64,000 nt of DNA, from NCBI GenBank assembly GCA_037134875.1, contig JBAXLH010000002.1:27719-91718 (forward strand), written 5' to 3'. Origin of the DNA: a bacterium (GTDB lineage Bacteria; Patescibacteriota; Minisyncoccia; Phycocordibacterales; DATDWN01). The stretch's first letter is position 1. Each line of letters starts with the position of its first letter. The position numbers and the translations under genes were made by a program. Shown here piece after piece: positions 23,040 to 64,000 of the stretch. The notes below the pieces were generated by a model that did no database searches, had not been told where the DNA came from, and was given only the letters and a program-made list of their open reading frames with translations.

Positions 23040-23680
23040 ATATATAGTATAGCAGATTTATCCACCCAGAGCGCCTCGGTATCTGTGAGAGCTGTGACAG
23101 AATACGAAACTTTTTTTTGAAACTCGGCAACTTCGCCGGAAAGTTCTGCACGAAAATGCGGAAAAATAGAAATATCTGTGAGACTGAATCCAGAAAGATT
23201 TTGGAGATTTACATCATTTGGATCGCCCTCGCTCCCCCATCCGGCAATTTCAATACTTGGACCTGCAATAATACTGCCCGCGCTGACACCCACATAGAGC
23301 GCACCGTGCTCGCACACTGCAGACTCTATATATGTATCGATACCAGTTTTTTTCATTCGCTCCAATATTGCAAATGTGTTTCCTCCGCAGACATATACGA
23401 CATCGTATTTTTTATCACTCGAATCATCCGCCGACTCGGCAAAGGCAAATTTTTCTTCTGTCAGATTAAAAACTGTCACAGAGAGACCAAGGTCAGTGAG
23501 CTCCTGCACCGATTCGTCCACATATCCCTGCTCGTGTGCATTTTGTGCGTACGCTACAATGAGTGCTGTTGCATCGGAAAGCGATTTTCCCTGCCCCACC
23601 ATTTTCTCCACAACCTTCCGCACAAAAAATTCTTGAATTTCTTTGGTGGATAGTCCTGTTGATGTGAGAAGGAGGGTCAT
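23036..23680 (-). CDS. Peptidase E-like S51 family (type 1 glutamine amidotransferase-like)
   Basis: 214 aa. YVCGGNTFAILERMKKTGIDTYIESAV...YVGVSAGSIIAG S51 nucleophile region. Confidence 0.65.
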   Translation of the reverse strand: MTLLLTSTGLSTKEIQEFFVRKVVEKMVGQGKSLSDATALIVAYAQNAHEQGYVDESVQELTDLGLSVTVFNLTEEKFAFAESADDSSDKKYDVVYVCGGNTFAILERMKKTGIDTYIESAVCEHGALYVGVSAGSIIAGPSIEIAGWGSEGDPNDVNLQNLSGFSLTDISIFPHFRAELSGEVAEFQKKVSYSVTALTDTEALWVDKSAILYI

Positions 23681-24750
23681 TTTTTATCACAGATAACATA
23701 ATGTAAATATTCGACTGTTTTGTTTGCTGTATAGTTTCTATTTTCTGATTTATCAGCTTTGAAACGATTATATTCTTTTGTAAAAAATCCATACTTACCA
23801 CGTGAACTCATTATTTCCTTAATATCATTTAAATTCATCAAACCTTCATTGTTATAACTTAAAAAAATATACTTTGCATTTGCTTTAGAAATTAAATCCT
23901 TGAAAGCTTTTTTGACCTGCACTCGTGAACAATAAAGTGACTTCTGATTTTCATAATCACGAAGACCTGTTTTTCCATGAATCTTAGGTTTGTCATATTT
24001 GGCAATAGTTTCCAAAATATGATAATTGGTAGCATATTGACGTTGATTGTATGGTGGATCTAAATACAAAATATCCCCTTCAACCCTTTTTACAACTTCA
24101 TTTATATCCTCATTAAAAACTTCATGTTCATGATCATTAATAATTAAATTTGCAGGTTTTAAAATCAAATTATTTTGTGCAGATTTTTTTAATTTTTTTA
24201 GAAAAGCACCATAGACTGAGGCAGTATTTGCATATTTGTCTATAGACTCAACCAGACTAGTAACTAAAAAATAATATTCATCATCTGAAATTAAATTTTG
24301 ACTTTTCCATTTTTCAATCTCTTGACGAATGGCGTCACATCGCATACCATTTTCATCAGAAAAATACTGACGTGTTTCTTTTTCTCCCTCGGTCCCTCCA
24401 AGGCAATAGTTTTTATAAATAAAACCTTTTATACCCTTCAAATCTGATAAATAATTACAAACAAAGTTTTTCCTATTTTTTATTTCAATTTTACTTAAAT
24501 CTGGAATTTCTTTTGTTAGTTTCGAAAATATTAATTCTTTATGATTTCCTATATAGTGTCTATTTAAGACATAACTATAGTATTGAATGTCATTTGCAAT
24601 CACTTTGAAACCTTTTTTTTTAAAATAACTACCCACAGCACCAGTACCAGCAAATAAATCACAAAAAGTATTGCAATTTTTATCAACCACTTTATTTATA
24701 GAATTTTCCAAAAATTCTAGTAATGATAGTTTGCTACCGATATAATTCAT
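23677..24750 (-). CDS. Dam-like N6-adenine DNA methyltransferase (alpha class, D12 family)
   Basis: 357 aa. N-terminal NYIGSKLSLL and FAGTGAVG (motif I). DPPY (motif IV) at ILYLDPPYNQRQY. Confidence 0.8.
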   Translation of the reverse strand: MNYIGSKLSLLEFLENSINKVVDKNCNTFCDLFAGTGAVGSYFKKKGFKVIANDIQYYSYVLNRHYIGNHKELIFSKLTKEIPDLSKIEIKNRKNFVCNYLSDLKGIKGFIYKNYCLGGTEGEKETRQYFSDENGMRCDAIRQEIEKWKSQNLISDDEYYFLVTSLVESIDKYANTASVYGAFLKKLKKSAQNNLILKPANLIINDHEHEVFNEDINEVVKRVEGDILYLDPPYNQRQYATNYHILETIAKYDKPKIHGKTGLRDYENQKSLYCSRVQVKKAFKDLISKANAKYIFLSYNNEGLMNLNDIKEIMSSRGKYGFFTKEYNRFKADKSENRNYTANKTVEYLHYVICDKK

Positions 24751-24754
24751 GATT

Positions 24755-25654
24755 TTAGTTGTGTAATAATATTACAAAACAAGGCACTTTATAATTTTTT
24801 TCACCAAGATTTCTGTGTTTATAAGAAAAATTAATTTCAATCGGATTATTTAGATCTGTTTTATTTATAATCTCCCTAATTTTATCAATCGAGACATCTT
24901 CATCAATATATACAACCAATAATCGAGGGTCTGCACCAAATCTACCCTCATCTTGATATTTATAAAGGTATTCCGCAACAAGTTCTGGTTTCTTAATAGC
25001 TATTTCACGCCAGTTATCTTTGAAATGTCTCTTGAATTCATTTGTAGGACTTTTTGAAACTTTTTGATCAAACGAAATTCCGTTAATAAAAAAATCTACG
25101 CCACGTCTATGATTCAGAGTTGGTAAAATATTATCGTTTTTTTCAAAAATCAATGTCTCGATAAAGTCATTTCTTACAGTATTAATTTCTTTTATTCGTC
25201 TATATTTAACAGCTGCAATTTTGACTTTTTCATCCTTAATAAATCCATTTCCTTTCTCAGAATTCACTCTTTGGACAAACTCATCAAAAGCACCTTGGGA
25301 AAATGGCCACGCAATATCTCCTAATTTTAGAGATTTCCATTCCTTAATAAGCAAATCCATTGCATTATCAGCCTCTTTCCCACTTTTATATTTTTCAGTT
25401 CCTTTAAAAATATCTCTGATAATTTTCTTACTTTCATCATATGACCAACTGTCCACAATAATTTTCCAAAGTTCTTTTGTATTAATACTTAAGACCTTTT
25501 TACCTATGTTTTTTCCGCGAGTTATTGTTTTAAATTTCAAAGAAGAAATTGTTTTTATACTATTTAAACGCAACAAATATTCTGTGGCCTTTTCTTGATT
25601 ACCAATAATTTTCTGTGCCAAATCATCAGATAACTTTGATTTAATATATTCCAT
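24755..25654 (-). CDS. Putative type II restriction endonuclease (PD-(D/E)XK fold)
   Basis: 299 aa between two MTase genes. Candidate catalytic motif RGVDFFINGISFDQKVSK (D...DxK). Confidence 0.45.
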   Translation of the reverse strand: MEYIKSKLSDDLAQKIIGNQEKATEYLLRLNSIKTISSLKFKTITRGKNIGKKVLSINTKELWKIIVDSWSYDESKKIIRDIFKGTEKYKSGKEADNAMDLLIKEWKSLKLGDIAWPFSQGAFDEFVQRVNSEKGNGFIKDEKVKIAAVKYRRIKEINTVRNDFIETLIFEKNDNILPTLNHRRGVDFFINGISFDQKVSKSPTNEFKRHFKDNWREIAIKKPELVAEYLYKYQDEGRFGADPRLLVVYIDEDVSIDKIREIINKTDLNNPIEINFSYKHRNLGEKNYKVPCFVILLHN

Positions 25655-25656
25655 AA

Positions 25657-26439
25657 CTATTTTTTAAAAATTAATATATATTCATGCTTAAAAATATAAT
25701 AATCACTCGATAATGCTCTATATCTCCAAATTCCTTCTTTGTTTTGTTTAGCACGATTTCCCTCCATATTCTTTATAATTATACTCTTTAAAATCAATCC
25801 TTGCTTTTGAATCTCATTCATACAATAAAAACCAAGAGGAATCCACTGACCCTTGGAATATTTATCCCCAATAACTACTGCTAAATATCCTTCTTTTCCC
25901 AGAATTTCTACTGTATTTTTAACCACCGCTGAAAATTTTTCTAGAAAATCTTTCAGTGATTTTGTATTTGATAAATCTTCCTTTTTATCACTAAATTTAA
26001 TAATATCAGCGTATGGAGGATGTAAAATTGCAAGATTTATGTTATTTTTTTTTCTATCTTTTAAAATTTGTTTGATTTTTTCTAATGTCTTCTGACTACC
26101 ACTATCTGAAACCAAAAGCTCTGAGAAATATTTTTTATTGTCGACTTTATCTTTTACATGCTGAATAAGACTCGACTGTATATCAACACCTATAAAATGA
26201 CGTTCTAAACTTTCTGCTTCATAAGCAGTTGTTCCACTTCCAACAAATGGATCAAAAACAACATCGCCTTTTTTTGTATATCTCAAAATCAACTGATGTG
26301 GTATCTGAGGAACAAAATTACCATGATAGAATCCGTCATGTTTTCCACTCTTATCTCTTCCAGAAATAATCCATAGGCTATCTGTCCAAATCTCAGATTC
26401 TTTCCAATTATTTATATCTAAATCGTTAAAATTTGGCAT
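25657..26439 (-). CDS. DNA methyltransferase, circularly permuted N4/N6 family (second MTase of the R-M cassette)
   Basis: 260 aa. HGNFVPQIPHQLILRYTKKGDVVFDPFVGSGTT (normally the C-terminal motifs X/I of PF01555-type MTases) lies at the N-terminus. It is followed about 70 aa later by ILHPPYADI (motif IV). Confidence 0.7.
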   Translation of the reverse strand: MPNFNDLDINNWKESEIWTDSLWIISGRDKSGKHDGFYHGNFVPQIPHQLILRYTKKGDVVFDPFVGSGTTAYEAESLERHFIGVDIQSSLIQHVKDKVDNKKYFSELLVSDSGSQKTLEKIKQILKDRKKNNINLAILHPPYADIIKFSDKKEDLSNTKSLKDFLEKFSAVVKNTVEILGKEGYLAVVIGDKYSKGQWIPLGFYCMNEIQKQGLILKSIIIKNMEGNRAKQNKEGIWRYRALSSDYYIFKHEYILIFKK

Positions 26440-51205: not shown

Positions 51206-52714
51206 ATGACAACAATAAAAATCGGAGAAATTATAAAACAAGCTCGGGAATACAAAAACCTTACCCAAGGAGAATTGGCAAAGAAATTACATACATCTCA
51301 ATCAGCGGTTGCAAGAATGGAAAAAGGAGAACAAAATCTAACAGCGGAACAGATTTCAAAAATCAGTAATATTTTAGGAAAATCTCTTGTAAAGATAGAA
51401 GGTGAAATGGATGATTTCAAAATAGAAGGAGGGAGAAAACTCTCTGGCTTCATACAAACAAACACCTCAAAAAATGGTGCTCTCGGACTCTTTTGTGCTT
51501 CCCTGCTCAACAAACAACCGACATTATTACACGGAATTCCTCACATTGAAGAAATCTCTCGCATTATAGAAATTTTTGAAAGTATCGGTGTAAAAATAGA
51601 ATGGGTAGCACACAATTCTGTTCGAATAATTCCTCCAAAAAAATTCTTCTTGAAAAATTTAAACGCAGAAAGTGCCGGAAAGATTCGATCTGTTCTTATG
51701 GTTATTGGTTCACTTATTCATTATGAAAAAAAATTTAGCATTCCACATGCCGGTGGTTGTAATATGGGACAGAGAACAATCGCTGCACACAGATATGGCT
51801 TTGAATCCCTTGGTGTCGATATCCAAACAAAAAATGACTGTTATGAAGTAACTCACAAAAAACTAAAACCTGCCGATATTGTCTTGTATGAGGCATCAGA
51901 TACTGCCACAGAAAATCTCCTCATTGCCTCAGCGCTAATTCCGGGAATAACAACTCTCAGATTTACTCCTCCAAATTATCAAGTCCAAGAAGTTTGTTTT
52001 TTCCTACAAAAATGTGGCGTAAAAATAGATGGAATCGGTACCAGTACACTCATTATACACGGCATAAAAGAGATAAATATTCCAATAGAATATTGGAATA
52101 GTGAAGATCCAACAGAATCAATGATGTTCATTGCGTCGGCAATAGTAACAAACTCCACACTGACAATTACCCGTTGTCCAATTGATTTTCTTTCTCTCGA
52201 ACTTTTGAAATTGGAAAAAATGGGTCTCATATATAGAACATCAAAAATATATATGGCAAAAAACGAACATACACGACTGTGTGATATTGTCATTTATCCT
52301 TCCAAACTAAAAGCTTCTCGTGACAAAATACACGCCTCGGCCTATCCAGGTATAAATACAGACAATCTTCCCTTCTTTGTGCCCATAGTAACTCAGGCAG
52401 AAGGCACGACGCTCATTCACGACTGGATGTGGGAAAATAGAGCAATATATTTCACAGAACTTAATCGACTTGGTGCCGATATCATCCTAGCAGATCCTCA
52501 TAGGGTTTTTGTTACTGGCCCAAGAATACTCAAAGCAAATCAAATCGTTTGCCCGCCCGCGCTCAGACCGTCAACAATTATTCTTGTTGCAATGCTTGGT
52601 GCAAAAGGAACTTCCATTTTACGCAATGTATATGCCATCAATCGCGGATACGAAAATATTGCCGAGCGACTAAACTCGATCGGTGCAAATATAAAACTAT
52701 TAAATGAATTCTAA
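51206..52714 (+). CDS. murA: XRE-family HTH domain fused to UDP-N-acetylglucosamine 1-carboxyvinyltransferase (MurA)
   Basis: 502 aa. Residues 1-65 are a Cro/C1 HTH (IIKQAREYKNLTQGELAKKLHTSQSAVARMEKGEQNLTAEQISKISNILG). The rest is EPT-fold MurA including a candidate catalytic Cys loop (PHAGGCNMGQRTIAAH). Confidence 0.8.
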   Translation: MTTIKIGEIIKQAREYKNLTQGELAKKLHTSQSAVARMEKGEQNLTAEQISKISNILGKSLVKIEGEMDDFKIEGGRKLSGFIQTNTSKNGALGLFCASLLNKQPTLLHGIPHIEEISRIIEIFESIGVKIEWVAHNSVRIIPPKKFFLKNLNAESAGKIRSVLMVIGSLIHYEKKFSIPHAGGCNMGQRTIAAHRYGFESLGVDIQTKNDCYEVTHKKLKPADIVLYEASDTATENLLIASALIPGITTLRFTPPNYQVQEVCFFLQKCGVKIDGIGTSTLIIHGIKEINIPIEYWNSEDPTESMMFIASAIVTNSTLTITRCPIDFLSLELLKLEKMGLIYRTSKIYMAKNEHTRLCDIVIYPSKLKASRDKIHASAYPGINTDNLPFFVPIVTQAEGTTLIHDWMWENRAIYFTELNRLGADIILADPHRVFVTGPRILKANQIVCPPALRPSTIILVAMLGAKGTSILRNVYAINRGYENIAERLNSIGANIKLLNEF

Positions 52715-53165: not shown

Positions 53166-53322
53166 GTGCGTTTTTTGTGCCGGAGGGGAGAAGACTTGGT
53201 CAGGAATATTTTATTCGCCGTCGCTCATAAAATTTCCCGACCCGGCCTTCGCGACCAAGTCTGCTGACTTGGTACCCGCTCCGGCTTTCAAGTCTCCCAC
53301 GCAAAGCTTCGCTTTGCTTCCT

Positions 53323-53614
53323 GTGCGTTTATTTTACCAAATCCGAACCTGTTTTCAAAATAGCAATGTTGGCAATGACAACATCGGCAAGTAATGTGCC
53401 ACGCTCCACGCCTGTGGTGATGTGAAGCTAATCGTACGCAAAAGAATTCCGTCACGCCGTAGCGTCCACTACAGCGAACCTCACCGAGCACCTACAGGTG
53501 CTCGTCTCGTCTCGCTTCCGTTCCCGCTCCGTCGTTCCGCCCTCGCCTTTCCCCGCATCCATGCTTTTTTGTTTGCGGCGGTTTTTGAATTTTTTTTGGA
53601 ATGGCGCGGGGAAA
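53323..53614. repeat. Left copy of ~290-bp near-identical inverted repeat (IR-L)
   Basis: Reverse complement of 56306-56598 with about 3 mismatches and 1 indel. Confidence 0.85.
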
Positions 53615-53817
53615 GCTCGGGCGGGTTTCCTCTAAGGAGGAAACTGACGGAATTCACTGCTACGTTATCTGCACTTCAGTGACAACTCTAACATAATCAT
53701 TCGCCTCGGACATTCCTTTGGGCTAGTGGTGATATAAACATTGTGGTTATGTAACGACGCCCAAAACGGAATATGTCCGAAGCTACAAAACAAAAACACA
53801 AGACATTGAAATTGTTA

Positions 53818-54096
53818 CTACTTATGTTTTTTGTTTAAAATTTCATCTCTTTCACCGAACCTAAATAATTGTTGATCTTCAACAATACGATAATCATGTT
53901 TTACCACAGCGGCATAGACAGTAGCCTCATCAACATCCTGGCAGGTGTTTAAATCGTTATCTACCCATAAAAATGATCCATTCTCGGTCTGTAAAAAATA
54001 CTTAGACCCCCCTAAGTCTTTTAGCACAGCAAAGACCTTGACCTTCTGATTATCTCGATCAATACCTTTTTTCATTTCAAAATTTCCTTCATTCAT
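53818..54096 (-). CDS. Hypothetical small cargo protein (candidate partner or immunity protein)
   Basis: 92 aa. Lies 6 nt downstream of the large cargo gene on the same strand. Confidence 0.5.
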   Translation of the reverse strand: MNEGNFEMKKGIDRDNQKVKVFAVLKDLGGSKYFLQTENGSFLWVDNDLNTCQDVDEATVYAAVVKHDYRIVEDQQLFRFGERDEILNKKHK

Positions 54097-54101
54097 AATT
54101 A

Positions 54102-56319
54102 TTATTCTATAATATTAATTTTATCACGCCAAACGGGATTATTTCTTAGTTCATCCAAAAAACTAGTATCTTCTTCACTTGCATTTGTCAGTGCTGATCG
54201 AGGAATATTTATACTTTCTATATTTTCAAATTTAGGATTTCTGATCTGTGCTTCAAGATACCCATTAAGTGCGGGGCCAACATGAGATTGATTCTTGGCT
54301 TCAGCTTGACGTTTAAGGTCAACAGCTATTAGGGCTTTTGCAAGTGGGGCGTGATCAGCTGATATTTGTCTGCTTCTTGGATTTTCCACATTTTCATATT
54401 CATCTTCTAAAGCCCTATTTCCCTTAAAGCCAGAACCCTTGCTTTTAATTGTTTTGTTAGTCTTACCCGTAACGAAATTTATACCTTGTGCTTCCATTGA
54501 ATCTCCTTCTGTATATGAAGTTTCTGTGTCGGCCTTAAACTTGATGAATATGTCTCCATATTGTTTAGCCCCTCCGTACATATTTTCGTTATTAAAATCA
54601 TGAGCGTATGCACCATATAGCACAACTTCATTGCCATCCCGCCTGACACCCAATGCTTCTTCAACTGCTTTTCTCTTATTATAATATCTAGGACTTAACG
54701 ACCTAAACATTTTCTTCTTTTCGCTAGCACTCAATCCAAATACATCCTTGAATTCTCCAGAGTCAATAACTTTGCGAATTGAACCCATGCTGGTATTGAC
54801 GCTAATAAAACCTGTAGATTGACTGCGTTCAAATTCACTATTAAGCATTTCCGTGAGTTGTTCACGGCTGATTGTTTTTCGAAAATCCTGTCTAGAAACT
54901 GTAGCTTGCTCGTTTGCCTCTCTCGCTAATTGATAAGCTTGCTCGTCTACTCGCCCATCGACGGTCTCTAGTTCATACATATCAGCCAGTGAATCACGAA
55001 TATTTTGGAAAGATCTTTGAAGAGCCTCTCGTTTATCTTCCGGAGCTTCTGCAAGGGCACTATCTTGGTTTTTGGATGATACACCAAAATTTTTATAAAC
55101 ATTATTTTCTAGATATGTAGACATGTCTTCTTCTGGCGATAGGATAGTATCAAATTTTTGGGCAATTGGTGCTTCTGTCACATGAGTAGCAATTTCTTGA
55201 AGAGGAGTTTTTGGTTCGGCCCGAACATCTGGTTTGTGATCAAAACCTTCCGTATTGTTTATCACATCCCCATGACTCTGTGTCATATCTTCTGGCACGT
55301 GTCTCTCAAGGCCTTCTTTTGTTTCAGTCGCTTCAACTGGAATTGTCTTTTCCGTAATGACTGAAGTTTCTGGGGTTTCTGTTGGCTCAAACTGTTTTAT
55401 TTTTTCATATACAACTTTATTATCTTCTAAGCTACCTTCAGAAATTGGTAGAGATTTAACTACAGATTCAGTAACTTGTACTTCTGGAACTGGTATTGCT
55501 TCTTTCTGAAGATCTTTTAATTCAGTCTGTTGCTCTACTTTTTCAACAACAGATTGTTTTTCTGGTAACCCTTCGATATTTACTAGTTTTTCTTCTCTCT
55601 GCTGATCTGGTTTATACTCATCAACAGCGTGTGGAATTTTTAGTGTATAGATATTTTTACTTTCGTTTAATGTCGTATTCCTAAGATCAAGTAGGTTACT
55701 AATTCTTGGAGCATTTTCTGTTTTTAGGAGTTCTTTTTGTTCAGGACTTCTTGCTAAATTAAATCTTGGTGATTGTAAAGGCACTCGTCCTCTACCTGTC
55801 TCATTCGGTAAAGAATTTTGCTTGTTTCCCGAAATTAATTGAGGTTTTTGTTTATTACCGCCAATCGTATTCCCGGCTGAATTTCCACCTGGAATTTTTG
55901 CTAAAACTTTTTTAGCTTTTGAATCAAAATATAATTTAACGATAGTCAATGTACATTCTGGTAGCATATTAACAATTGGGATAAATCCAATAACAGCTCC
56001 AGCGATCATGGTTTTTTTAGAATATGTTTCCCCATTCATTTTGAAAACGAGCCAAAACGTAGCAAAAGCGAAACCATCTATAAACATGGCTAATATTTCA
56101 CCTGCTATCGGTATTAGACTTATAAGAGCTTCGAGCGTATCAAAAAATAGTGCGGTTCCAATTAAAACCATCCATGTCCCTTTTCCAATATTAGATTTAT
56201 TCTCTTCCACAATATGTCTATTATATAACAGACTAAAATCAATCTCAATAAAATTTATGAGGTAATTACTTATCTGCTTATCAATATGATATTGATCCTT
56301 AAAATTTCCCCGCGCCATT
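54102..56319 (-). CDS. Large hypothetical membrane protein with low-complexity linker and uncharacterised C-terminal domain
   Basis: ~740 aa from MARGNFKD (ATG inside the IR edge). The track's GTG-extended start at 56498 only reads through the repeat. N-terminal 4-5 TM helices. Long Q/E/T/P-rich region. C-terminal ~300-aa globular domain. Confidence 0.55.
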
Positions 56320-56598
56320 CCAAAAAAAAATTCAAAAACCGCCGCAAACAAAAAAGCATGGATGCGGGGAAATGCGAGGGCGGAACGACGGAGCGGGAAC
56401 GGAAGCGAGCCGAGACGAGCACCTGTAGGTGCTCGGTGAGGTTCGCTGTAGTGGACGCTACGGCGTGACGGAATTCTTTTGCGTACGATTAGCTTCACAT
56501 CACCACAGGCGTGGAGCGTGGCACATTACTTGCCGATGTTGTCATTGCCAACATTGCTATTTTGAAAACAGGTTCGGATTTGGTAAAATAAACGCACC
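56306..56598. repeat. Right copy of ~290-bp inverted repeat (IR-R)
   Basis: See IR-L. Contains a TTGGCA-17-TAATGT promoter-like sequence pointing into the cargo. Confidence 0.85.
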
Positions 56599-56710
56599 TT
56601 AAACGAACTAAAGGGTTCTGAACCCGAACCCAAGCGGAACGCGCAAAGCGCGTGCCAAGGATTTTTTGGCGGGATTGCAAGGGAATTTCCCGAATCCAGC
56701 GCGCTCACCG
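56598..56710. repeat. ~113-bp inverted repeat, copy C (partner at 58336-58450)
   Basis: cgaactaaagggttctgaacccgaacccaagcggaacgcgcaaagcgcgtgccaagg... is the exact reverse complement of 58340-58445. Confidence 0.8.
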
Positions 56711-56810
56711 CTACTTTTTTTTCGCCGAGGAGGAGGTTCGAAATCAGAAGCAATTTTGACTAATTTATTTTGCTTGCAAGACAAAAAGAATTTTTGCTAT
56801 ACTATGTTTG

Positions 56811-56885
56811 CAACCAACTGATCGAAAGGCTTTTTTAATGGCCGTCTTGGACAATTCGAAGCTTTTCGAGTTGGTTGCACCAGGA
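56811..56885 (+). promoter_or_regulatory. Nested inverted repeats (candidate operator/recombinase-binding site) between a TGn-TATACT promoter and the integrase start
   Basis: gcaaccaact...agttggttgc and aatggccgtc...gacggccatt. Confidence 0.35.
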
Positions 56886-56911
56886 CGGCCATTTAAGTTT
56901 TCAAAATATAT

Positions 56912-58564
56912 ATGAATAATATATCTCCGCAAAAATTCTTTTTGTATGCACGCAAGTCAACCGATGTCGAGGACAAGCAAGTTTTGAGTATTGATGCACA
57001 AATTGCAGAATTGCGCGCTTTCGCCAAAAATGAAAAGTTAGAAATCATGGAGGAATTTGTAGAAAAACGCACTGCGAAAATTCCAGGTCGTCCCATTTTT
57101 GGCGAAATGATGAGACGAATTGAGAAAGGTGAAGTAAATGGTATTTTAGCGTGGCATCCAGATCGTCTCGCGCGCAATTCTGTTGACGGCGGACAAATTA
57201 TTTACTTTGTTGATATCGGAAAACTTACCATGTTGAAATTTCCCTCGCACTGGTTTGAAAATACTCCGCAAGGAAAGTTTTCACTTTCCATGGCGTTCGT
57301 TCAGTCAAAATATTATGTTGATTCTCTTTCCGAAAATACCAAACGTGGACTTCGCCAAAAAGTACGCATGGGTATTTTCCCAAGCCAAGCTCCTCTCGGT
57401 TATATAAACGACAGTAGAACAAAAACGATTGTGGTAGAAAAGAAAAAATCTCGCATTATTCGCTTGGCTTTTGAAAAATATGTTAAAGGTGGTGAGCGAC
57501 TGGAGGATATCGCCACCTTTTTGGCCAAGTCCGGCATATTAACATGGAATGGAAAGAGAATCTCAAAAACTCGCACTTCTTTTATTTTATCAAACCCGTT
57601 CTATGTTGGTTTTTTCAACTACTCGGGAGAATTACACGAAGGCAAACACGAGCCAATCATTTCAAAAAAACTTTTTGATGAAGCACAGGAAATGTTGAGG
57701 TCTCGCGGTCAGCCAGAGCGTAAACCGAAAAACGAACCTCAACCTTTTTGCGGACTCATTTCCTGTGCTTCATGCGGAATGATGATAACTGGCGAACACA
57801 AATTCAAACGGCAGAAAAATGGAAATGTTCACGAGTATACATATTATCGTTGTACCAAAAAACGAAAAGATTTTCATTGTCCCGAATCTGCCGTTAGAGA
57901 AAAAGAATTGGATCGCCAGTTATCATCTCTAATACAAAAAGTTTCTTTGCCCAAAGACTGGGCGGAAGAATTATTGAAAATGGCAGAAAAAGATTTTCAA
58001 AATTCCGCCCCGTCTTTGGTTGCTTGTGTGAAAGAGAAAGAGATCAAAATTTCTGCTATATCACAAAAGTTGGAGCGACTTCTCAATGGCTATTTAGACC
58101 AAGATATTGAAAAGGAAATTTATCGTTCTGAAAAAGCAAAATTATTACTTTCCAAGAAGTCGCTCGAGGAAGAAATGACATCTCTTTCACACAAGCAAAA
58201 TGATTGGCTCGAACCGATGCAGAAGTGGTTAATATCCGCGCAGAATGTGGACAAAATCGCTTCTGATTCAGACCTTTTTGCTAAAAAGGTCTGTGCCAAA
58301 GAAATCTTTGGCTCGAACCTCCTCCTCGACGAAAAAACAGTGCGCGCAAGCGCGCTGGATTCGGGAAATTCCCTTGCAATCCCGCCAAAAAATCCTTGGC
58401 ACGCGCTTTGCGCGTTCCGCTTGGGTTCGGGTTCAGAACCCTTTAGTTCGTTTAAGGTGCCGGAGGGGAGACTTGAACTCCCATCCCTTTCGAGACACGA
58501 TTTTGAGTCGTGCGTGTATACCAATTCCACCACTCCGGCAATACATACAGAATACCCGAAATAG
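56912..58564 (+). CDS. Large serine recombinase (serine integrase)
   Basis: 550 aa. Resolvase catalytic domain (FLYARKSTDVEDKQVLSIDAQ; ILAWHPDRLARN). Recombinase domain. Zinc ribbon (CGLISCASCGMMITG...YYRCTKKRKDFHCP). Coiled coil. The 3' end reads through repeat C' and tRNA-Leu, so the true C-terminus is uncertain. Confidence 0.8.
   Translation: MNNISPQKFFLYARKSTDVEDKQVLSIDAQIAELRAFAKNEKLEIMEEFVEKRTAKIPGRPIFGEMMRRIEKGEVNGILAWHPDRLARNSVDGGQIIYFVDIGKLTMLKFPSHWFENTPQGKFSLSMAFVQSKYYVDSLSENTKRGLRQKVRMGIFPSQAPLGYINDSRTKTIVVEKKKSRIIRLAFEKYVKGGERLEDIATFLAKSGILTWNGKRISKTRTSFILSNPFYVGFFNYSGELHEGKHEPIISKKLFDEAQEMLRSRGQPERKPKNEPQPFCGLISCASCGMMITGEHKFKRQKNGNVHEYTYYRCTKKRKDFHCPESAVREKELDRQLSSLIQKVSLPKDWAEELLKMAEKDFQNSAPSLVACVKEKEIKISAISQKLERLLNGYLDQDIEKEIYRSEKAKLLLSKKSLEEEMTSLSHKQNDWLEPMQKWLISAQNVDKIASDSDLFAKKVCAKEIFGSNLLLDEKTVRASALDSGNSLAIPPKNPWHALCAFRLGSGSEPFSSFKVPEGRLELPSLSRHDFESCVYTNSTTPAIHTEYPK
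58336..58450. repeat. Inverted repeat copy C'
   Basis: Reverse complement of 56598-56710. Confidence 0.8.
58456..58539 (-). tRNA. tRNA-Leu (anticodon CAA), type II with long variable arm
   Basis: Minus strand. Acceptor GCCGGAG/CUCCGGC. D-arm GUG-GAAUUGGUAUA-CAC. Anticodon stem CACGA/UCGUG with loop CUCAAAA. Variable arm UCUCGAAAGGGAU. T-arm GGGAG-UUCAAGU-CUCCC. Discriminator A. CCA not encoded. Confidence 0.85.
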
Positions 58565-61004: not shown

Positions 61005-62021
61005 TTAACATTGCACGGCTTCACTCAACGTCTGACGAATAACACTCCACGAAAATTGAGTGAAATCCTGACGCGAGACTGACGTGTCTTTACAAAAAAC
61101 TCTATTAGTCAAAAAACAAATGGTGATCCTCGGTTTACGAGAAAAAAATATCCGGCAACCAGTCCAGCCGGCAAAAACTAGTGGTTTTTCTACTGAAAAC
61201 CCTTCCAGACTTTTCGGATACGGTATATCAAAACCTAAGGCATATGACCTATCCGAAATACCCATTTTGACGAGCTGGTTGTTTGACACGTCTTCATAAA
61301 ACTTGGAGCCAATCATAGTCTCTAATGTTCTGTGAAAAATATCGCAAAGCATACTGGCATCTGTAAAGAGACCGGCAACTGCAATATTTTCTGACTTATG
61401 AGCTAAAGAAAGTGGATCATGTACAATTCCACGAAGCGACAAATCCATACATGTCGGAATTGTTGCCTGTGCAGATACAAGACCTCTATCAACTGGATGG
61501 AACATAAATCTGTCCCTTTGATACATCGGGTTTTGAATAAATTCATTCAGAAATATTTCTTCAATTCCCATTCCATAGATTTTTTCCAAAACGAAAGCCA
61601 GATAAGCACTCGAAACATTGTCGTACTGAAATCTTTTCCCCCAGTGAGAAAAACCTGAGTTGAGAAGTGTGTCGCGAAATGATCCGGATGTACCATCACG
61701 CAGGGCTTCATAACTAAAGTTATAGTCTTTAACAACGTAGCACAGAAAATGCCACAGCCGTCTCCCGTTTCCTTCGGGAACAGGAATAAAATCCCTAAAT
61801 CTCATTTCCGGATTCAAACTTCCAGAATTGAAAAGTTTCCAAAACAGCAAATGATTTAACGCTTTGGTCAAACTTGCAATATCAAACAAGTGAGAACCGT
61901 CGCGGGAAATAAAATCACCATCTGAAAAACAAGTATTCACATCGCCACTGACACTGAAATCGAAATCAGTGAACATACCTTTTTGCCTACCATTTTCAAA
62001 CAACTGTCTGATTCGTTGCAC
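61005..62021 (-). CDS. Serine hydrolase, beta-lactamase/transpeptidase-like family
   Basis: 338 aa. SxxK motif FDIASLTKAL. Confidence 0.55.
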   Translation of the reverse strand: MQRIRQLFENGRQKGMFTDFDFSVSGDVNTCFSDGDFISRDGSHLFDIASLTKALNHLLFWKLFNSGSLNPEMRFRDFIPVPEGNGRRLWHFLCYVVKDYNFSYEALRDGTSGSFRDTLLNSGFSHWGKRFQYDNVSSAYLAFVLEKIYGMGIEEIFLNEFIQNPMYQRDRFMFHPVDRGLVSAQATIPTCMDLSLRGIVHDPLSLAHKSENIAVAGLFTDASMLCDIFHRTLETMIGSKFYEDVSNNQLVKMGISDRSYALGFDIPYPKSLEGFSVEKPLVFAGWTGCRIFFSRKPRITICFLTNRVFCKDTSVSRQDFTQFSWSVIRQTLSEAVQC

Positions 62022-62116
62022 ACATCACCTCTTGTCCCAGTATATAGACCGTGAGTGATTTGGCAAAATTGACTCAAATAATATTTAGATGTATAAATAA
62101 ACAAGGAGAGTAGAAG

Positions 62117-62254
62117 ATGAAAGAAGCCACCGATCATCCCATCGGCGCATGGGATGATTTTACAATAAAAACGATGGGTGTAATCTTTCTGATTCTTTTT
62201 GTAGGTTTTCCTATTTTTATTTTCGTTGCGAAGCTGAATAAGTGGATCGATTAG
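62117..62254 (+). CDS. Small hypothetical membrane protein (45 aa)
   Basis: AAGGAG Shine-Dalgarno 8 nt before ATG. One TM helix (MGVIFLILFVGFPIFIFVA). Followed by a terminator. Confidence 0.4.
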   Translation: MKEATDHPIGAWDDFTIKTMGVIFLILFVGFPIFIFVAKLNKWID

Positions 62255-62281
62255 TTTCGGTCAACTCAGCTATGTTTTAAT

Positions 62282-62310
62282 ACCCCGTATAGACGGGGTT
62301 GTTTTTTATA
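62282..62310 (+). terminator. Rho-independent terminator
   Basis: CCCCGUAUAGACGGGGUUGUUUUUUAUAUUUUUUG. Confidence 0.6.
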
Positions 62311-62317
62311 TTTTTTG

Positions 62318-62389
62318 CGGGCCCACCCCGACTCGAACGGGGAACAACGGTTTTGGAGACCGACGTTTTACCATTGAAACTATAGGCCC
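62318..62389 (-). tRNA. tRNA-Trp (anticodon CCA)
   Basis: Minus strand. Acceptor GGGCCUA/UGGGCCC. D-arm GUUU-CAAUGGUA-AAAC. Anticodon stem CGGU/ACCG (with 27-43 U.U) and loop CUCCAAA. T-arm CCCCG-UUCGAGU-CGGGG. Discriminator G. Confidence 0.8.
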
Positions 62390-62448
62390 AACACAGACAA
62401 ATATAACAAAAAATCGCCATTTTGGCGAATTTTTTTGTTTTTTTGTTT

Positions 62449-62625
62449 TTACTTCTTTACTCGTTTGAGTGGAAGTTTGACTTCACCAAAGACAACTCGC
62501 TGGCGGAGCTTTTTGTCATACTTTTTGAGGCCGAGTTTTCGCTCGACTTTTTTCTTGTTTTTTGAAGTGATATATACCTCTCCAGTTTTCTTGTTTTGTA
62601 TCGCGATAAGTCTATCTTGTGACAT
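62449..62625 (-). CDS. rpmG: 50S ribosomal protein L33 (missed by the ORF track, <60 aa)
   Basis: Hand translation MSQDRLIAIQNKKTGEVYITSKNKKKVERKLGLKKYDKKLRQRVVFGEVKLPLKRVKK aligns with bL33 (..[48 protein letters not shown]). Confidence 0.8.
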   Translation of the reverse strand: MSQDRLIAIQNKKTGEVYITSKNKKKVERKLGLKKYDKKLRQRVVFGEVKLPLKRVKK

Positions 62626-62667
62626 ATAATTGTATTTAAATTAGTACTGGCATCATACATAAAAATC

Positions 62668-62966
62668 GGAAAAAAAGCAAATGAAAAGCGCAGGGTGGAC
62701 ACCCCGCGCTCGTTGAGGGACGAAGCCCTCGGACTAGGCCGTCGCGACGGCCTTCTTCTTTTTCCGGTCGGAGGAAGCCGACGGCTTCCCCGTTCCGGAA
62801 ACCGGCGCCCCGCGCCGGATGGCCTCGAGAGCGACCATCGGGCGCTGCTTGCGCCCGTGGTCGCCGTGGCGCGGGACATTCTGTCCCGGCCGGAACTCCG
62901 TATTCTGATTGTACATATAAAAACTCCTTCAACTATAATATTAGCATACTATATAAAATCTGTCAA
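62668..62966 (-). other. GC-rich (~70%) autonomous unit: consensus promoter, AAGGAG SD, 60-aa Arg/Gly/Pro-rich ORF (62734-62916), hairpin plus U terminator. Small basic protein or structured sRNA.
   Basis: Minus strand: TTGACA-17-TAATAT (62966-62938). SD AAGGAG 7 nt before ATG at 62916. ORF MYNQNTEFRPGQNVPRHGDHGRKQRPMVALEAIRRGAPVSGTGKPSASSDRKKKKAVATA. Terminator GCGCGGGGUG-UC-CACCCUGCGC+UUUUCAUUUGCUUUUUUU (62668-62710). RNA forms a series of perfect 7-10 bp hairpins. Confidence 0.45.
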
Positions 62967-62972
62967 GTACTT

Positions 62973-63350
62973 TTATGGTACCTCCTGCCATGAGGAAATA
63001 GTGATTGGATTAAAAGATTGGGTGGTTATTTGGAGCTTGCGGGTTAGTCCTTGGATCGTAGTTGTCACAGAAACAGCTCTGGTGTTCCCTCCTGTGTTGG
63101 TTACGGTGTAATTGCACGTATTTGTACCCAATATCTGACTGCCCGAACCTGTGTAAGACGTGTTCTCTCTCATTAGCTCTAGTGCCACCTCGGCACAAGC
63201 GTCAGAGAGCACACGAGCTTGACTTGAGTTTTTGCTGTCCAGACTACCCCGCACTGACCAGAGACTACTTGTGGCAATAGAAAGGGCAAGACCGAGCGCA
63301 ATACTGCCTAGAATAATAACTATGTAGAGTGTAGAAAATCCTTTTTGCAT
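62973..63350 (-). CDS. Type IV pilin/pseudopilin-like protein
   Basis: Start at MQKGFSTLYIVIILGSIALGLALSIA (prepilin-like G-F-S-T-L leader with Tyr in place of Glu5). Confidence 0.55.
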   Translation of the reverse strand: MQKGFSTLYIVIILGSIALGLALSIATSSLWSVRGSLDSKNSSQARVLSDACAEVALELMRENTSYTGSGSQILGTNTCNYTVTNTGGNTRAVSVTTTIQGLTRKLQITTQSFNPITISSWQEVP

Positions 63351-63354
63351 ATAT

Positions 63355-63870
63355 TTATCGTATTGTCGCTGTTCCATAAAAATTGACTGAGTATTGCTCT
63401 TCTGCTCGGGTGGTAGATGCTGTGTTGCTGAGTGTAAATCTGACAAGCACAGTGCCGTGAGTTGCCGGGCGTGAAGTATTTGAGAACACAAGATTTGAAA
63501 CTTTGACTTTGTTGTTGGTCAAGGCGACTGCGCTGGATGTTCCTTCTACCATATACAAAACTTCCCCACTTGCAGAAAAGGTTGTCGGATTTGTAGATGA
63601 TGAGGCTGTTGCAATACTCAAAACCCCTGCACTATTTCCAACGACTGGGGAGTTTATAGCAGTCCCGTTTCTGACACTTTGAGTAATCGTGCGCACGAGA
63701 CTTGCGCCTTGGTCACTTACCTCAAGCATTACCTGAGTACGCATTCGATATGAGTTGAGACTCAGTGCAAACTCGGCGAGACCGACGATAACCATACCGA
63801 AAATCGCAACGTAAATAATTGTTTCAATGAGAGTAAATCCAGAATTTTTTTGTATGCTGTTTTTTTTCAT
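63355..63870 (-). CDS. Type IV pilin (prepilin with GFTLIE N-terminus)
   Basis: Start at MKKNSIQKNSGFTLIETIIYVAIFGMVIVGLA, a canonical class III signal peptide plus hydrophobic helix. Confidence 0.7.
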   Translation of the reverse strand: MKKNSIQKNSGFTLIETIIYVAIFGMVIVGLAEFALSLNSYRMRTQVMLEVSDQGASLVRTITQSVRNGTAINSPVVGNSAGVLSIATASSSTNPTTFSASGEVLYMVEGTSSAVALTNNKVKVSNLVFSNTSRPATHGTVLVRFTLSNTASTTRAEEQYSVNFYGTATIR

Positions 63871-64000
63871 TTTAATTCCATGTGAAATCATACCAATACT
63901 CTGCCGTTGCCGAGCCGTTTGTGCCATGAGTGGTGAGTGCCTTGCCAACCGGTGTACTATACATCACGTTGTTTGTGCCATCCCAGACAATACTGTAAAC

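What the first reader, a model, noticed from the sequence alone, without database searches (positions are those of the whole stretch)
53818..56319. Uncharacterised cargo pair: large membrane, low-complexity and C-terminal domain protein plus 92-aa partner (toxin/immunity-like or novel surface system)
The large protein has an N-terminal 4-5-TM module and a ~250-aa Q/E/T/P/K-rich linker. Its C-terminal ~300-aa domain, including FISVNTSMGS...YGAYAHDF...TEGDSMEAQ, has no family I recognise. A small cytosolic-looking protein follows 6 nt downstream. This toxin/immunity-like layout, carried on a mobile element, is what is seen for polymorphic toxin systems and some abortive-infection/defence pairs. 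It could be a previously undescribed module.
Basis: inference. Interest (0 to 1): 0.6.

Follow-up and report, generated by a model that had tools for sequence, protein, structure and literature searches.

The report
SopF-like ADP-ribosyltransferase with conserved small partner
The large "unknown" protein ends in an enzyme domain related to the Salmonella toxin-like effector SopF, is always followed by the same small acidic partner gene in related ultra-small (Patescibacteria) bacteria, and here rides on a 5.3-kb mobile element inserted in a tRNA gene, so it is most likely a toxin/effector with its neutralising partner, not a wholly new kind of system.

Summary
Both genes are real, on the minus strand: big ORF 54102-56318, 92-aa ORF 53818-54096, 5-nt gap. 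The C-terminal ~340 aa do belong to a known family. A profile of 38 relatives hits SopF (PDB 7DN8/7DN9) at E=2.4e-7. Ten of 38 relatives hit Pfam DUF3626. An AlphaFold model (pLDDT 95.7) has SopF as its top Foldseek match, followed by the ADP-ribosyltransferases CteC and DarT. The residues aligned to SopF Y224, Y240 and E325 are present (Y568, Y587, E689). The partner has no detectable family but lies directly downstream in every close relative's locus examined, all from Patescibacteria or metagenomes. More distant DUF3626 proteins lack it. Some relatives sit beside type IV secretion genes or a PT-TG pre-toxin gene. In the window the pair plus a large serine recombinase form a ~5.3-kb element in the 3' end of tRNA-Leu, with two nested long inverted repeats that I could not explain. 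The real start codon is probably GTG 56210, giving 702 aa. Best reading: a SopF-family ADP-ribosylating toxin or effector plus an immunity-like partner (confidence ~0.5; fold assignment ~0.9). It is a new variant of a known kind, of moderate interest.

The parts
53177..53200 (-). attL-like partial copy of the 3' end of tRNA-Leu. It has 15 nt exact (53177-53191), then an extra T, then CAAGTCT. It marks the far end of the integrated element.
   Evidence: the 15-nt exact match has E=5.4e-4 within 6 kb, and the adjacent 7-nt match CAAGTCT is at 53192-53198.
53201..53322 (.). GC-rich non-coding stretch 'u' just inside the attL-like repeat (GC 53% over 53192-53322). At 53287-53298 it holds a second, oppositely oriented 12-nt piece of the tRNA 3' end (TTCAAGTCTCCC).
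   Evidence: The 12-nt match has E=0.033, so it is only suggestive.
53323..53614 (.). Left arm of the 293-nt, 99% identical inverted repeat that brackets the cargo operon.
   Evidence: All four repeat junctions are seen in independent short-read contigs.
53818..54096 (-). Partner gene, 92 aa. It is acidic, has no TM segment or signal peptide, and carries a conserved KHGY motif (invariant A23, L25, H67, Y69). Proposed immunity/neutralising protein.
   Evidence: No hit in Pfam, PDB sequences, NCBIfam, PADLOC or PHROGs.
54102..56318 (-). The probable true start is GTG 56210 (702 aa).
54105..55121 (-). C-terminal helical module plus SopF-like (DUF3626) ADP-ribosyltransferase domain, aa 400-738. 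Y568 is codon 54615-54617, Y587 is 54558-54560, and the catalytic-position E689 is 54252-54254.
55122..55913 (-). Low-complexity linker rich in E, K, P, T, L and V, aa 136-399. Inferred to be flexible.
   Evidence: composition. Relatives do not share this region beyond its composition.
55914..56171 (-). N-terminal membrane module of about 4 TM helices (aa 50-135). It is shared with P0006, P0007, P0071, P0072 and the L019 protein.
   Evidence: Two TM-type relatives lie next to VirB4-like T4SS ATPase genes.
56220..56248 (-). Best sigma-70-like promoter match (TTGAGA-17-TATAAT, 11/12), just upstream of GTG 56210.
   Evidence: This is a consensus match only.
56305..56597 (.). Right arm of the 293-nt inverted repeat. 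It includes the ATG at 56318 and the first 5 annotated codons.
56594..56741 (.). Left arm of the 148-nt, 96% inverted repeat that brackets the recombinase gene. It is an inverted copy of the recombinase 3' end.
   Evidence: phmmer of the recombinase against the minus-strand ORF 56526-56753 gives 2.4e-25.
56912..58564 (+). Large serine recombinase, 550 aa as an ORF. The ORF reads through the tRNA gene.
   Evidence: Pfam Resolvase, Recombinase and Zn_ribbon_recom. PHROG integrase phrog_95, 6.6e-80. Similarity to CcrB and XisF, below their curated cutoffs.
58313..58460 (.). Right arm of the 148-nt inverted repeat. It covers the 3' end of the recombinase ORF and overlaps the last 5 nt of tRNA-Leu.
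58456..58539 (-). tRNA-Leu(CAA), the integration target (attR side).

Best explanation
The pair is a SopF-family (DUF3626) ADP-ribosyltransferase toxin or effector followed by its cognate neutralising (immunity-like) partner. It is a cassette specific to Patescibacteria.

Shown: the C-terminal ~340 aa fold as a SopF-like ADP-ribosyltransferase and keep the residues aligned with SopF Y224, Y240 and E325. The domain is fused here to a ~4-TM membrane module through a ~260-aa low-complexity linker. The partner gene is strictly syntenic in close relatives.

Inferred: the enzyme uses NAD+ to ADP-ribosylate a target, possibly a membrane-associated one, in a rival or host cell or in the producer itself. 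The small acidic cytoplasmic partner binds and blocks it in the producer. The positive-inside rule applied to the 4-TM alignment puts the linker and enzyme domain on the cytoplasmic side. In some lineages the TM-type protein works with a type IV secretion apparatus.

In this genome the cassette is cargo of a ~5.3-kb element (about 53177-58478). A large serine recombinase has integrated this element into the 3' end of tRNA-Leu(CAA), and the element restores the tRNA 3' end.
For: ART assignment:
- An exhaustive HMM search finds 66 relatives sharing the C-terminal domain.
- Ten of 38 relatives hit Pfam DUF3626, best 9.3e-8. DUF3626 covers SopF residues 178-338 (PMC6682159).
- The family profile hits SopF chains 7dn8_C and 7dn9_A at 2.4e-7 and 4.1e-6. 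It aligns VLYGAYA with PIYAAL, QYGDIF with AYGKSF, and YLEAQI with YIEAHI. That Glu is replaced by Asp in the NAD-bound crystal.
- SopF is an ADP-ribosyltransferase with an I-Y-E triad (PMC10333799).
- The AF2 model has pLDDT 95.7 and pTM 0.93.
- Top Foldseek PDB hits are SopF (E=5e-6, prob 1.0), then CteC and DarT. Viral hits include a phage protein annotated as DUF3626.
- The Y[ILV]EA[QH][ILV] motif is conserved in most relatives.

Pair and conflict context:
- The partner lies immediately downstream in the window, L001, L013, L014, L019, L020, L021, L022, L031 and L032. HMM E-values are 1e-20 to 1e-47 where the gene is complete; in L032 only the first 21 codons remain, read by eye. In L015/L023 a marginal match (E=0.022) sits in the same position.
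- The constant C-terminal enzyme plus partner is combined with different N-terminal modules: a TM module, a soluble coiled-coil type, or none.
- A PT-TG pre-toxin-domain gene follows the partner in L013 and L031.
- PrgI, a VirB4-like ATPase and a T4SS pilin surround the pair in L019, and a VirB4-like gene precedes it in L032.
- Partners are acidic, pI 4.6-5.3.

Mobile element:
- Recombinase domains, tRNA-Leu and the repeat of the tRNA 3' end.
- A homologous recombinase (42% identity, 2e-118) sits with the same cargo next to tRNA-Glu in a Saccharibacteria contig.
Against: - No biochemical or genetic data exist. Neither toxicity nor neutralisation has been tested.
- The window protein itself does not reach the Pfam DUF3626 model even at E<=1. 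Membership rests on profile and fold evidence.
- No recognised secretion or trafficking domain (LXG, Rhs, PAAR, WXG, CDI and so on) is present.
- The inferred N-in/C-in topology would keep the enzyme in the producer's cytoplasm.
- Classical polymorphic toxins have a conserved N-terminus and variable C-terminal toxins. Here the C-terminus is the constant part.
- The partner has no detectable relation to any known immunity family.
- T4SS or PT-TG neighbours are seen in only 4 loci, and no T4SS gene was found in this window (and the gene lists).
Confidence: 0.5

Rival explanations
1. The partner is not an inhibitor. It is a dedicated secretion chaperone, adaptor or activating cofactor of a T4SS-linked effector, by analogy with SopF, which needs ARF GTPases for activity, and with the small acidic chaperones of secreted effectors.
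For: - SopF is activated by a bound protein cofactor, ARF1 (PMC10333799; PDB 7DN8 and 7DN9).
- The partner is small and acidic and strictly co-inherited with the enzyme.
- TM-type relatives lie next to VirB4, PrgI and T4SS-pilin genes.
Against: - The partner has no similarity to GTPases or to known chaperone families.
- Most pairs are not next to secretion genes.
- The TM-anchored architecture is hard to reconcile with translocation of the whole protein.
Confidence: 0.2
2. The pair is a toxin-antitoxin, addiction or abortive-infection module, with an ART toxin as in DarT-DarG. It acts only inside the producer and stabilises the mini-element or protects against phage.
For: - It is carried on a 5.3-kb element whose only other gene is the recombinase.
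- Toxin-first gene order occurs in known ART toxin-antitoxin systems (own knowledge).
- There are weak fold matches to DarT, E 0.2-1.6.
- The predicted topology places the enzyme domain in the cytoplasm (inference).
Against: - No PADLOC defence model matches.
- The toxin proteins are 317-1170 aa with long N-terminal regions or TM modules, unlike compact TA toxins.
- The partner has no DNA-binding or macrodomain-like region.
- Only 2 of about 12 loci carry a recombinase. No viral-contig relatives were found.
Confidence: 0.15
3. The enzyme is an endogenous regulatory ADP-ribosyltransferase that modifies one of the cell's own membrane complexes, and the partner is a regulator. It is not a conflict system at all.
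For: - Several pairs sit among housekeeping genes: L001 near GroES/EL, HSP20 and LeuRS, and L014 near GatA.
- The enzyme is tethered to the membrane by TM helices and a linker.
Against: - The distribution is patchy: only 4 hits among 185,579 species-representative genomes with the degenerate-pattern scan.
- It is carried on a mobile element.
- PT-TG and T4SS neighbours occur, and the N-termini vary.
Confidence: 0.08
4. The 293-nt inverted repeats make the cargo operon an invertible on/off cassette, flipped by the recombinase or by homologous recombination. Under this reading the key feature of the locus is phase variation.
For: - The 99% identical arms bracket exactly the two genes.
- The cargo is antiparallel to the recombinase here but parallel in L013.
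- Each arm carries an outward-facing promoter-like site.
Against: - No contig shows the opposite orientation. The one short-read contig that spans an arm (L006) has the same orientation as the window.
- The operon has its own promoter-like site inside the invertible part, so flipping need not change expression.
- L013 has no such repeat around its cargo.
- Large serine recombinases normally use short att sites (own knowledge).
Confidence: 0.07

Closest known systems
SopF (Salmonella enterica T3SS1 effector; Pfam DUF3626, PF12294; PDB 7DN8 and 7DN9)
   Same: The ADP-ribosyltransferase fold is homologous: profile E=2.4e-7 and top Foldseek hit with prob 1.0. The tyrosines and glutamate that align with SopF Y224, Y240 and E325 are conserved, in a YxEAxI motif. 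A helical region precedes the catalytic core. Both proteins are associated with membranes.
   Different: - Sequence identity is only about 14%, and the window protein is below the Pfam model's detection.
- The host is a free-living or episymbiotic Patescibacteria bacterium, not an animal pathogen.
- There is no T3SS signal.
- The domain is fused to a 4-TM module and a long linker.
- A dedicated small partner gene follows, which SopF is not reported to have.
- The target is unknown, whereas SopF modifies Gln124 of ATP6V0C. Dependence on an ARF-like cofactor is also unknown.
Polymorphic toxin / effector-immunity cassettes with ADP-ribosyltransferase toxins (general class, own knowledge; PT-TG is one of its pre-toxin domains)
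   Same: - The enzymatic toxin-type domain is C-terminal.
- A small cytoplasmic partner gene lies immediately downstream.
- The same toxin-plus-partner unit is combined with different N-terminal modules.
- PT-TG and secretion-system genes occur nearby in some loci.
- The cassette is mobile.
   Different: - No recognised N-terminal trafficking domain is present.
- No arrays of alternative C-terminal cassettes or orphan immunity genes were seen.
- The immunity function is unproven.
DarT-DarG and other ART toxin-antitoxin pairs
   Same: The ART-fold toxin gene is followed by a neutralising partner gene. There is weak structural similarity to DarT (E 0.2-1.6).
   Different: The partner is 92 aa with no macrodomain. 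The toxin is 3-5 times larger and has a membrane anchor. There are no defence-model hits.
Large serine recombinase integrative elements (CcrB, XisF and phage-integrase type)
   Same: The recombinase has the Resolvase, Recombinase and Zn-ribbon architecture. It lies at one end of a discrete insertion bounded by a short direct repeat.
   Different: - The element is very small: 5.3 kb with 3 genes.
- The target is a tRNA 3' end, which is more typical of tyrosine integrases (own knowledge).
- The recombinase gene is bracketed by a 118-148-nt inverted repeat whose outer end overlaps the tRNA terminus. This is seen in two unrelated lineages, and I know of no described equivalent.
Phage 'polyvalent' or injected proteins carrying DUF3626-like domains
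   Same: Foldseek finds the same fold in phage proteins annotated as DUF3626, as minor capsid protein, or as ParB-like N-terminal domain-containing (E 1e-6 to 5e-4). So the domain recurs in proteins involved in inter-genome conflict.
   Different: No sequence relatives were found in viral contigs. The architecture and the partner gene differ.

Membership tests
DUF3626 / SopF-like ADP-ribosyltransferases | A significant match to the Pfam PF12294 model | tested here: inconclusive
   The window protein has no hit at E<=1. Ten of 38 homologues do hit, best 9.3e-8. One relative is named 'DUF3626 domain-containing protein' by NCBI.
DUF3626 / SopF-like ADP-ribosyltransferases | Sequence-profile homology to SopF itself | tested here: met
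   The family profile against PDB sequences gives 7dn8_C at E=2.4e-7 and 7dn9_A at 4.1e-6. These were the only two hits.
DUF3626 / SopF-like ADP-ribosyltransferases | SopF-like ART fold | tested here: met
   The AF2 model has pLDDT 95.7. The best Foldseek PDB hits are SopF, E=5.2e-6, prob 1.00, TM 0.42/0.47. The next hits are the ARTs CteC and DarT.
DUF3626 / SopF-like ADP-ribosyltransferases | Catalytic residues (SopF I-Y-E triad; Y224, Y240, E325) | tested here: met
   The aligned residues Y568, Y587 and E689 are present and at least 90% conserved in the family. SopF numbering is from my own knowledge plus chain offsets. The triad is described in PMC10333799.
DUF3626 / SopF-like ADP-ribosyltransferases | NAD+-dependent ADP-ribosyl transfer | not testable with these tools
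   This needs biochemistry.
Polymorphic toxin / effector-immunity system | Cognate small gene immediately downstream of the toxin and conserved with it | tested here: met
   Found in all close loci examined. It is absent next to the distant DUF3626 proteins P0041 and P0036.
Polymorphic toxin / effector-immunity system | Recognised N-terminal secretion or trafficking domain | tested here: not met
   The N-terminal 400 aa have no hit in Pfam, NCBIfam or PHROGs.
Polymorphic toxin / effector-immunity system | Linkage to a secretion apparatus or to pre-toxin domains | tested here: inconclusive
   T4SS genes flank the pair in L019 and L032, and a PT-TG gene follows it in L013 and L031. None is present in this window.
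Polymorphic toxin / effector-immunity system | The partner neutralises the toxin | not testable with these tools
Co-expression and binding assays are needed.
Type II-like toxin-antitoxin / anti-phage defence pair | Match to known defence or TA protein models | tested here: not met
   PADLOC gives only a spurious Cas6b2 match at 0.014 in the linker, and nothing for the partner.
Large serine recombinase integrative element | Resolvase catalytic domain plus Recombinase domain plus zinc ribbon | tested here: met
   Pfam 2.9e-19, 2.2e-17 and 5.3e-9. phrog_95 integrase 6.6e-80.
Large serine recombinase integrative element | Insertion bounded by att-type repeats at a defined target | tested here: met
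   A 15-nt exact repeat plus 7 nt of the tRNA-Leu 3' end lies at 53177-53200, matching 58456-58478. The flanks are housekeeping genes.
Large serine recombinase integrative element | Empty site or excised circle observed | tested here: not met
   All contigs carrying the flanking genes MiaA or MurA-like also carry the element or break inside its repeats.
Site-specific DNA inversion switch (Hin/Gin-type) | Both orientations of the repeat-flanked segment present in populations | tested here: inconclusive
   Only the window orientation was seen. Most short-read contigs stop 141 nt into the arms.

The most novel reading that the evidence does not exclude
The cassette may be the prokaryote-versus-prokaryote counterpart of SopF. 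Under this reading it is a membrane-tethered ADP-ribosyltransferase linked to type IV secretion, which Patescibacteria epibionts use on a membrane target of their bacterial host or of competitors. One possible target is the proteolipid c-ring of an ATPase, by analogy with SopF's target ATP6V0C. A previously unknown immunity family would hold the enzyme in check. It would be spread by a new type of tRNA-targeting serine-recombinase mini-element, whose long inverted repeats bracket the recombinase gene and allow the cargo to flip.
Probability: 0.12. Interest if true: 0.75.

Novelty: new variant of a known kind. Interest (0 to 1): 0.5.

Why it matters
SopF is so far known as a single animal-pathogen effector with an unusual ART fold. 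This result places a well-conserved sub-family of that fold in Patescibacteria (CPR). These bacteria depend on other bacteria, and their effector repertoire is almost unknown. The sub-family always comes with a small partner of a new family, and is sometimes next to type IV secretion genes.

If the pair is a toxin-immunity or effector-chaperone unit, it would give a concrete, testable candidate for how these episymbionts act on their hosts or rivals. It would also hint at the evolutionary origin of SopF. The tiny recombinase element, with its conserved inverted-repeat design, is a separate puzzle in mobile-DNA mechanics.

Tried and rejected
- Direct Pfam, PHROGs, NCBIfam and PADLOC scans of both proteins found nothing meaningful.
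- Weak hits were dismissed as noise: DUF4112 (0.31), DYW deaminase (0.017), DUF7399 and Cas6b2.
- The word-indexed homology search found only self plus one relative for the big protein and two for the partner. The family appeared only with the exhaustive HMM search.
- AF2 with a 2-sequence alignment failed, with pLDDT 44.
- The partner profile against PDB sequences and Pfam gave only non-significant hits, such as a CRISPR-associated protein at 0.13 and XisI at 0.38.
- No relatives of the ART protein were found in viral contigs. The recombinase had only one distant relative there, at 23% identity.
- I tested whether the 293-nt repeat is a known RNA. Rfam gave nothing at gathering or at E<=5. 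Folding gave z=-3.2 on the plus strand and -2.0 on the minus strand, which is not compelling.
- An apparent similarity between the repeat and the L013 spacer was not significant: 40 of 300 shuffles scored as well.
- The search for an empty site or an inverted state in other contigs found none.
Full report
**1. What is there**

On the minus strand there is a large ORF ending at 54102. Five nucleotides downstream is a 92-aa ORF at 53818-54096. From that ATG the protein is 738 aa. A hydropathy scan gives TM segments at aa 50-71, 74-93 and 104-122. An alignment with TM-type homologues shows a conserved four-helix module: FD..EA...IGEIL...FW / K-rich loop / A.IG.IP..N.LPE / T...., then a K/E-rich exit. 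Residues 136-399 are a linker rich in E, K, P, T, L and V. Residues 400-738 are the conserved C-terminal region. The partner is acidic (pI 5.3) and has no hydrophobic segment. The same two genes, at 99.8-100% identity, occur in contigs from several independent samples.

**2. Start codon**

The ATG at 56318 and the next four codons lie inside a 293-nt inverted repeat. The same ATGGCGCGGGGAAA occurs in the other arm, where it opens only a 27-codon ORF. The closest TM-type relatives (P0006, P0071, P0072) start 7-14 aa before TM1. Their N-termini (MGEDQEHKQRIKVW..., MEERRERIKVW...) align with window V37-W49. The best promoter-like match in the whole 5.7-kb region (TTGAGA-17-TATAAT, 11 of 12 positions) lies at 56248-56220, just upstream of the in-frame GTG at 56210. 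I infer that the real protein starts at GTG 56210 (702 aa), or possibly at ATG 56171. The repeat would then be non-coding.

**3. The C-terminal domain belongs to a known family**

Direct family scans of the window protein were empty. The word-indexed search found only one relative, P0002 from a Patescibacteria MAG, with 58% identity over the last 278 aa.

An exhaustive HMM search with these two sequences found 66 proteins at E<=1e-3, of which 21 were at E<=1e-30. All share the C-terminal ~270 aa, placed at the end of proteins of 317-1170 aa. Ten of 38 of these match Pfam DUF3626, best 9.3e-8. DUF3626 is the domain that covers residues 178-338 of the Salmonella effector SopF (PMC6682159).

A profile of the 38 sequences hits only two PDB sequences, both SopF-ARF1 complexes: 7dn8_C at 2.4e-7 and 7dn9_A at 4.1e-6. 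The alignment puts window VLYGAYA on SopF PIYAAL, QYGDIF on AYGKSF, and YLEAQI on YIEAHI. In the NAD-bound crystal this last Glu is replaced by Asp.

SopF is an ADP-ribosyltransferase with an 'I-Y-E' triad. It is activated by ARF GTPases and modifies Gln124 of the V-ATPase subunit ATP6V0C (PMC10333799).

With a 63-sequence alignment, AlphaFold2 gives a confident model of aa 400-738 (pLDDT 95.7, pTM 0.93). The 2-sequence attempt had failed. Foldseek against the PDB returns SopF first (E=5.2e-6, probability 1.00, TM 0.42/0.47). Next come the ADP-ribosyltransferases CteC and DarT at E 0.06-1.6. Against viral models the hits include a phage 'DUF3626 domain-containing protein' and several large phage proteins.

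The motif Y[ILV]EA[QH][ILV], containing the aligned glutamate, is present in most of the 66 relatives. In the alignments, N508, R549, E553, G588, Y587, D606, S607, Y687 and E689 are invariant or nearly so.

Conclusion, at about 0.9 confidence: this is a divergent SopF/DUF3626-type ADP-ribosyltransferase with an apparently intact active site.

**4. The partner**

The 92-aa protein has only two detectable close relatives in the word-indexed search. It has no significant match in Pfam, PDB sequences, NCBIfam, PADLOC or PHROGs.

Its genomic behaviour is informative. A homologue lies immediately downstream of the ART gene in every close relative's locus I could read:
- L001, Patescibacteria
- L013, Saccharibacteria
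- L014, Paceibacteria
- L019 to L022, metagenomic contigs
- L031
- L032, where only the first 21 codons remain before the contig ends; this one was recognised by eye, not by HMM

HMM E-values are 1e-20 to 1e-47 for sequences not used to build the model. The most distant pair, L015/L023 (a 915-aa protein, 26% identity), is followed by a 92-aa ORF that hits the partner model only marginally (E=0.022). It shares the KHGY motif.

Two more remote DUF3626 proteins from Patescibacteria (P0041, P0036) have no such neighbour. The pair therefore defines a sub-family. This sub-family also carries a characteristic helical module (EYLE.EVF...RSFQN.RD) in front of the catalytic core. Partners are acidic, pI 4.6-5.3.

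**5. Context in other genomes**

All named relatives are from Patescibacteria: Saccharibacteria, Paceibacteria and the Parcubacteria group.

N-terminal regions vary between relatives. Some have the 4-TM module plus linker (window, P0006, P0007, P0071, P0072, L019). Others have a soluble coiled-coil-like module (for example P0008, P0010, P0012), and some have almost nothing (P0009, P0020, P0029).

In L019 the pair lies between a PrgI-family gene, a VirB4/TraG-type ATPase and a T4SS-pilin gene. In L032 the TM-type protein directly follows a VirB4-like ATPase. In L013 and L031 the gene after the partner carries a PT-TG pre-toxin domain, at 1.1e-5 and 8e-5. Other loci are among housekeeping genes. 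No relatives were found in viral contigs.

A constant enzyme-plus-partner unit, combined with different N-terminal modules and occasionally linked to secretion or pre-toxin genes, follows the logic of effector-immunity cassettes. However, no recognised trafficking domain is present. The positive-inside rule applied to the 4-TM alignment (inference) places the enzyme domain in the producer's cytoplasm.

**6. The mobile element in this window**

A 550-aa large serine recombinase is encoded at 56912-58564. It has Resolvase, Recombinase and Zn-ribbon domains, matches phrog_95 integrase at 6.6e-80, and resembles CcrB and XisF. It is divergent from the cargo operon, and its ORF runs through tRNA-Leu(CAA) at 58456-58539.

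The last 15 nt of the tRNA are repeated exactly at 53177-53191. After one extra T, seven more matching bases (CAAGTCT) follow. The repeat lies just after the convergent host ORF that ends at 53165. The flanks are housekeeping genes: ParB, MurB and an HTH-MurA-like gene on one side, MiaA and a Mur ligase on the other. This delimits a ~5.3-kb insertion containing only the recombinase and the pair.

A 42%-identical recombinase (phmmer 2e-118) accompanies the homologous cargo next to tRNA-Glu in the Saccharibacteria contig L013. I found no empty site and no excised form.

**7. Unexplained repeats**

(a) A 293-nt, 99% identical inverted repeat (53323-53614 / 56305-56597) brackets the cargo. All four of its junctions are confirmed in independent assemblies. 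Short-read contigs stop 141 nt into the arms, as expected for k=141. The one contig that spans an arm (L006) has the window's orientation. The cargo is antiparallel to the recombinase here but parallel in L013, so an inversion has probably happened at some time. An active switch is not shown.

(b) A 148-nt, 96% identical inverted repeat (56594-56741 / 58313-58460) brackets the recombinase gene. Its right arm is the 3' end of the recombinase ORF and overlaps the last 5 nt of the tRNA. L013 has the same design with unrelated sequence: 118 nt, 99%, overlapping the last 6 nt of tRNA-Glu. Seeing this in two lineages argues that it is a built-in feature of this element family. I cannot say what it does. 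The arms contain terminator-like hairpins.

Rfam finds no known RNA in these regions. Folding statistics are unremarkable. An apparent similarity between the window repeat and the L013 spacer is not significant.

**8. Interpretation**

Best-supported reading (~0.5): a SopF-family ADP-ribosylating toxin or effector with a cognate neutralising partner, carried here by a miniature serine-recombinase element.

Shown:
- homology and fold of the enzyme domain
- conservation of the active-site residues
- strict synteny of the partner
- variable N-terminal modules
- recurrent T4SS or PT-TG neighbours
- the element boundaries

Inferred:
- enzymatic activity
- toxicity
- neutralisation by the partner
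- membrane topology
- any link to secretion in this genome

Rivals:
- partner as chaperone or activator (0.2)
- intracellular toxin-antitoxin, addiction or defence module (0.15)
- endogenous regulatory enzyme (0.08)
- phase-variable cassette as the main feature (0.07)

**9. Novelty**

I found no paper in the held library linking DUF3626/SopF to Patescibacteria, to a conserved partner gene or to type IV secretion. Some relatives are already auto-annotated as 'DUF3626 domain-containing protein'.

The fold and the toxin-plus-small-partner layout are known kinds. The new elements are the partner family, the TM module, the lineage and the carrier element. I rate it a new variant of a known kind, with interest 0.5.

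Noticed in passing
window 53323-53614 and 56305-56597: A 293-nt inverted repeat, 99% identical and GC-rich (51% against about 40% for the genome), brackets exactly the two cargo genes. It includes the annotated ATG of the large gene. Each arm carries an outward-facing promoter-like site and a terminator-like hairpin.
   Followed up: partly
window 56594-56741 and 58313-58460; L013 4587-4704 and 6177-6294: The recombinase gene is itself bracketed by a long inverted repeat: 148 nt at 96% here, and 118 nt at 99% in a Saccharibacteria element with unrelated sequence. In both cases the outer end overlaps the last 5-6 nt of a tRNA gene. This is a conserved design with no explanation that I know of.
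   Followed up: partly
window 56912-58564 and 58456-58539: The recombinase ORF reads through the whole tRNA-Leu gene on the opposite strand, so its last ~33 codons are tRNA-derived. The L013 recombinase does the same through tRNA-Glu. The C-terminal tail would therefore change on excision.
   Followed up: no
window 53287-53298: A 12-nt piece of the tRNA-Leu T-arm/acceptor sequence (TTCAAGTCTCCC) lies in the opposite orientation to the attL-like copy, 24 nt from the outer end of the left repeat arm. It may be a relic of a recombination site used for an inversion. The match has E=0.033, so it could be chance.
   Followed up: no
window 23677-26439: A low-GC island (GC 0.28 in the 24-26 kb bin) holds a D12-class N6-adenine DNA methyltransferase, an unassigned 299-aa ORF and a second N6/N4 DNA methylase. 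It is probably a horizontally acquired restriction-modification cassette.
   Followed up: partly
window 51206-52714: The MurA/EPSP-synthase-family protein carries an N-terminal XRE-type HTH domain (HTH_3 plus EPSP_synthase in the precomputed annotation). This is an unusual fusion for a cell-wall enzyme.
   Followed up: no
L013 3479-4090 and L031 3122-3733: A 203-aa gene with a PT-TG (pre-toxin TG) domain directly follows the partner gene in two Saccharibacteria-type loci. This suggests a second toxin-related gene in the same cassette.
   Followed up: partly
L019 1326-9703; L032 199-4389: TM-type members of the family sit inside or next to type IV secretion gene clusters (PrgI, VirB4-like ATPase, T4SS pilin). 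They occupy roughly the position where a VirB6-like membrane protein would be expected.
   Followed up: partly
L001 9196-9740: In the closest relative's locus the pair lies just downstream of a tRNA-Phe gene and a 124-aa Cys-rich ORF on the opposite strand, with no recombinase. This may be the remnant of another tRNA-targeted insertion.
   Followed up: no
window ~62000-64000: Type IV pilin-like genes (N_methyl motif; products of 190 and 837 aa) and a T2SS-F-type platform gene lie just beyond the Mur ligase. This pilus locus is typical of Patescibacteria.
   Followed up: no
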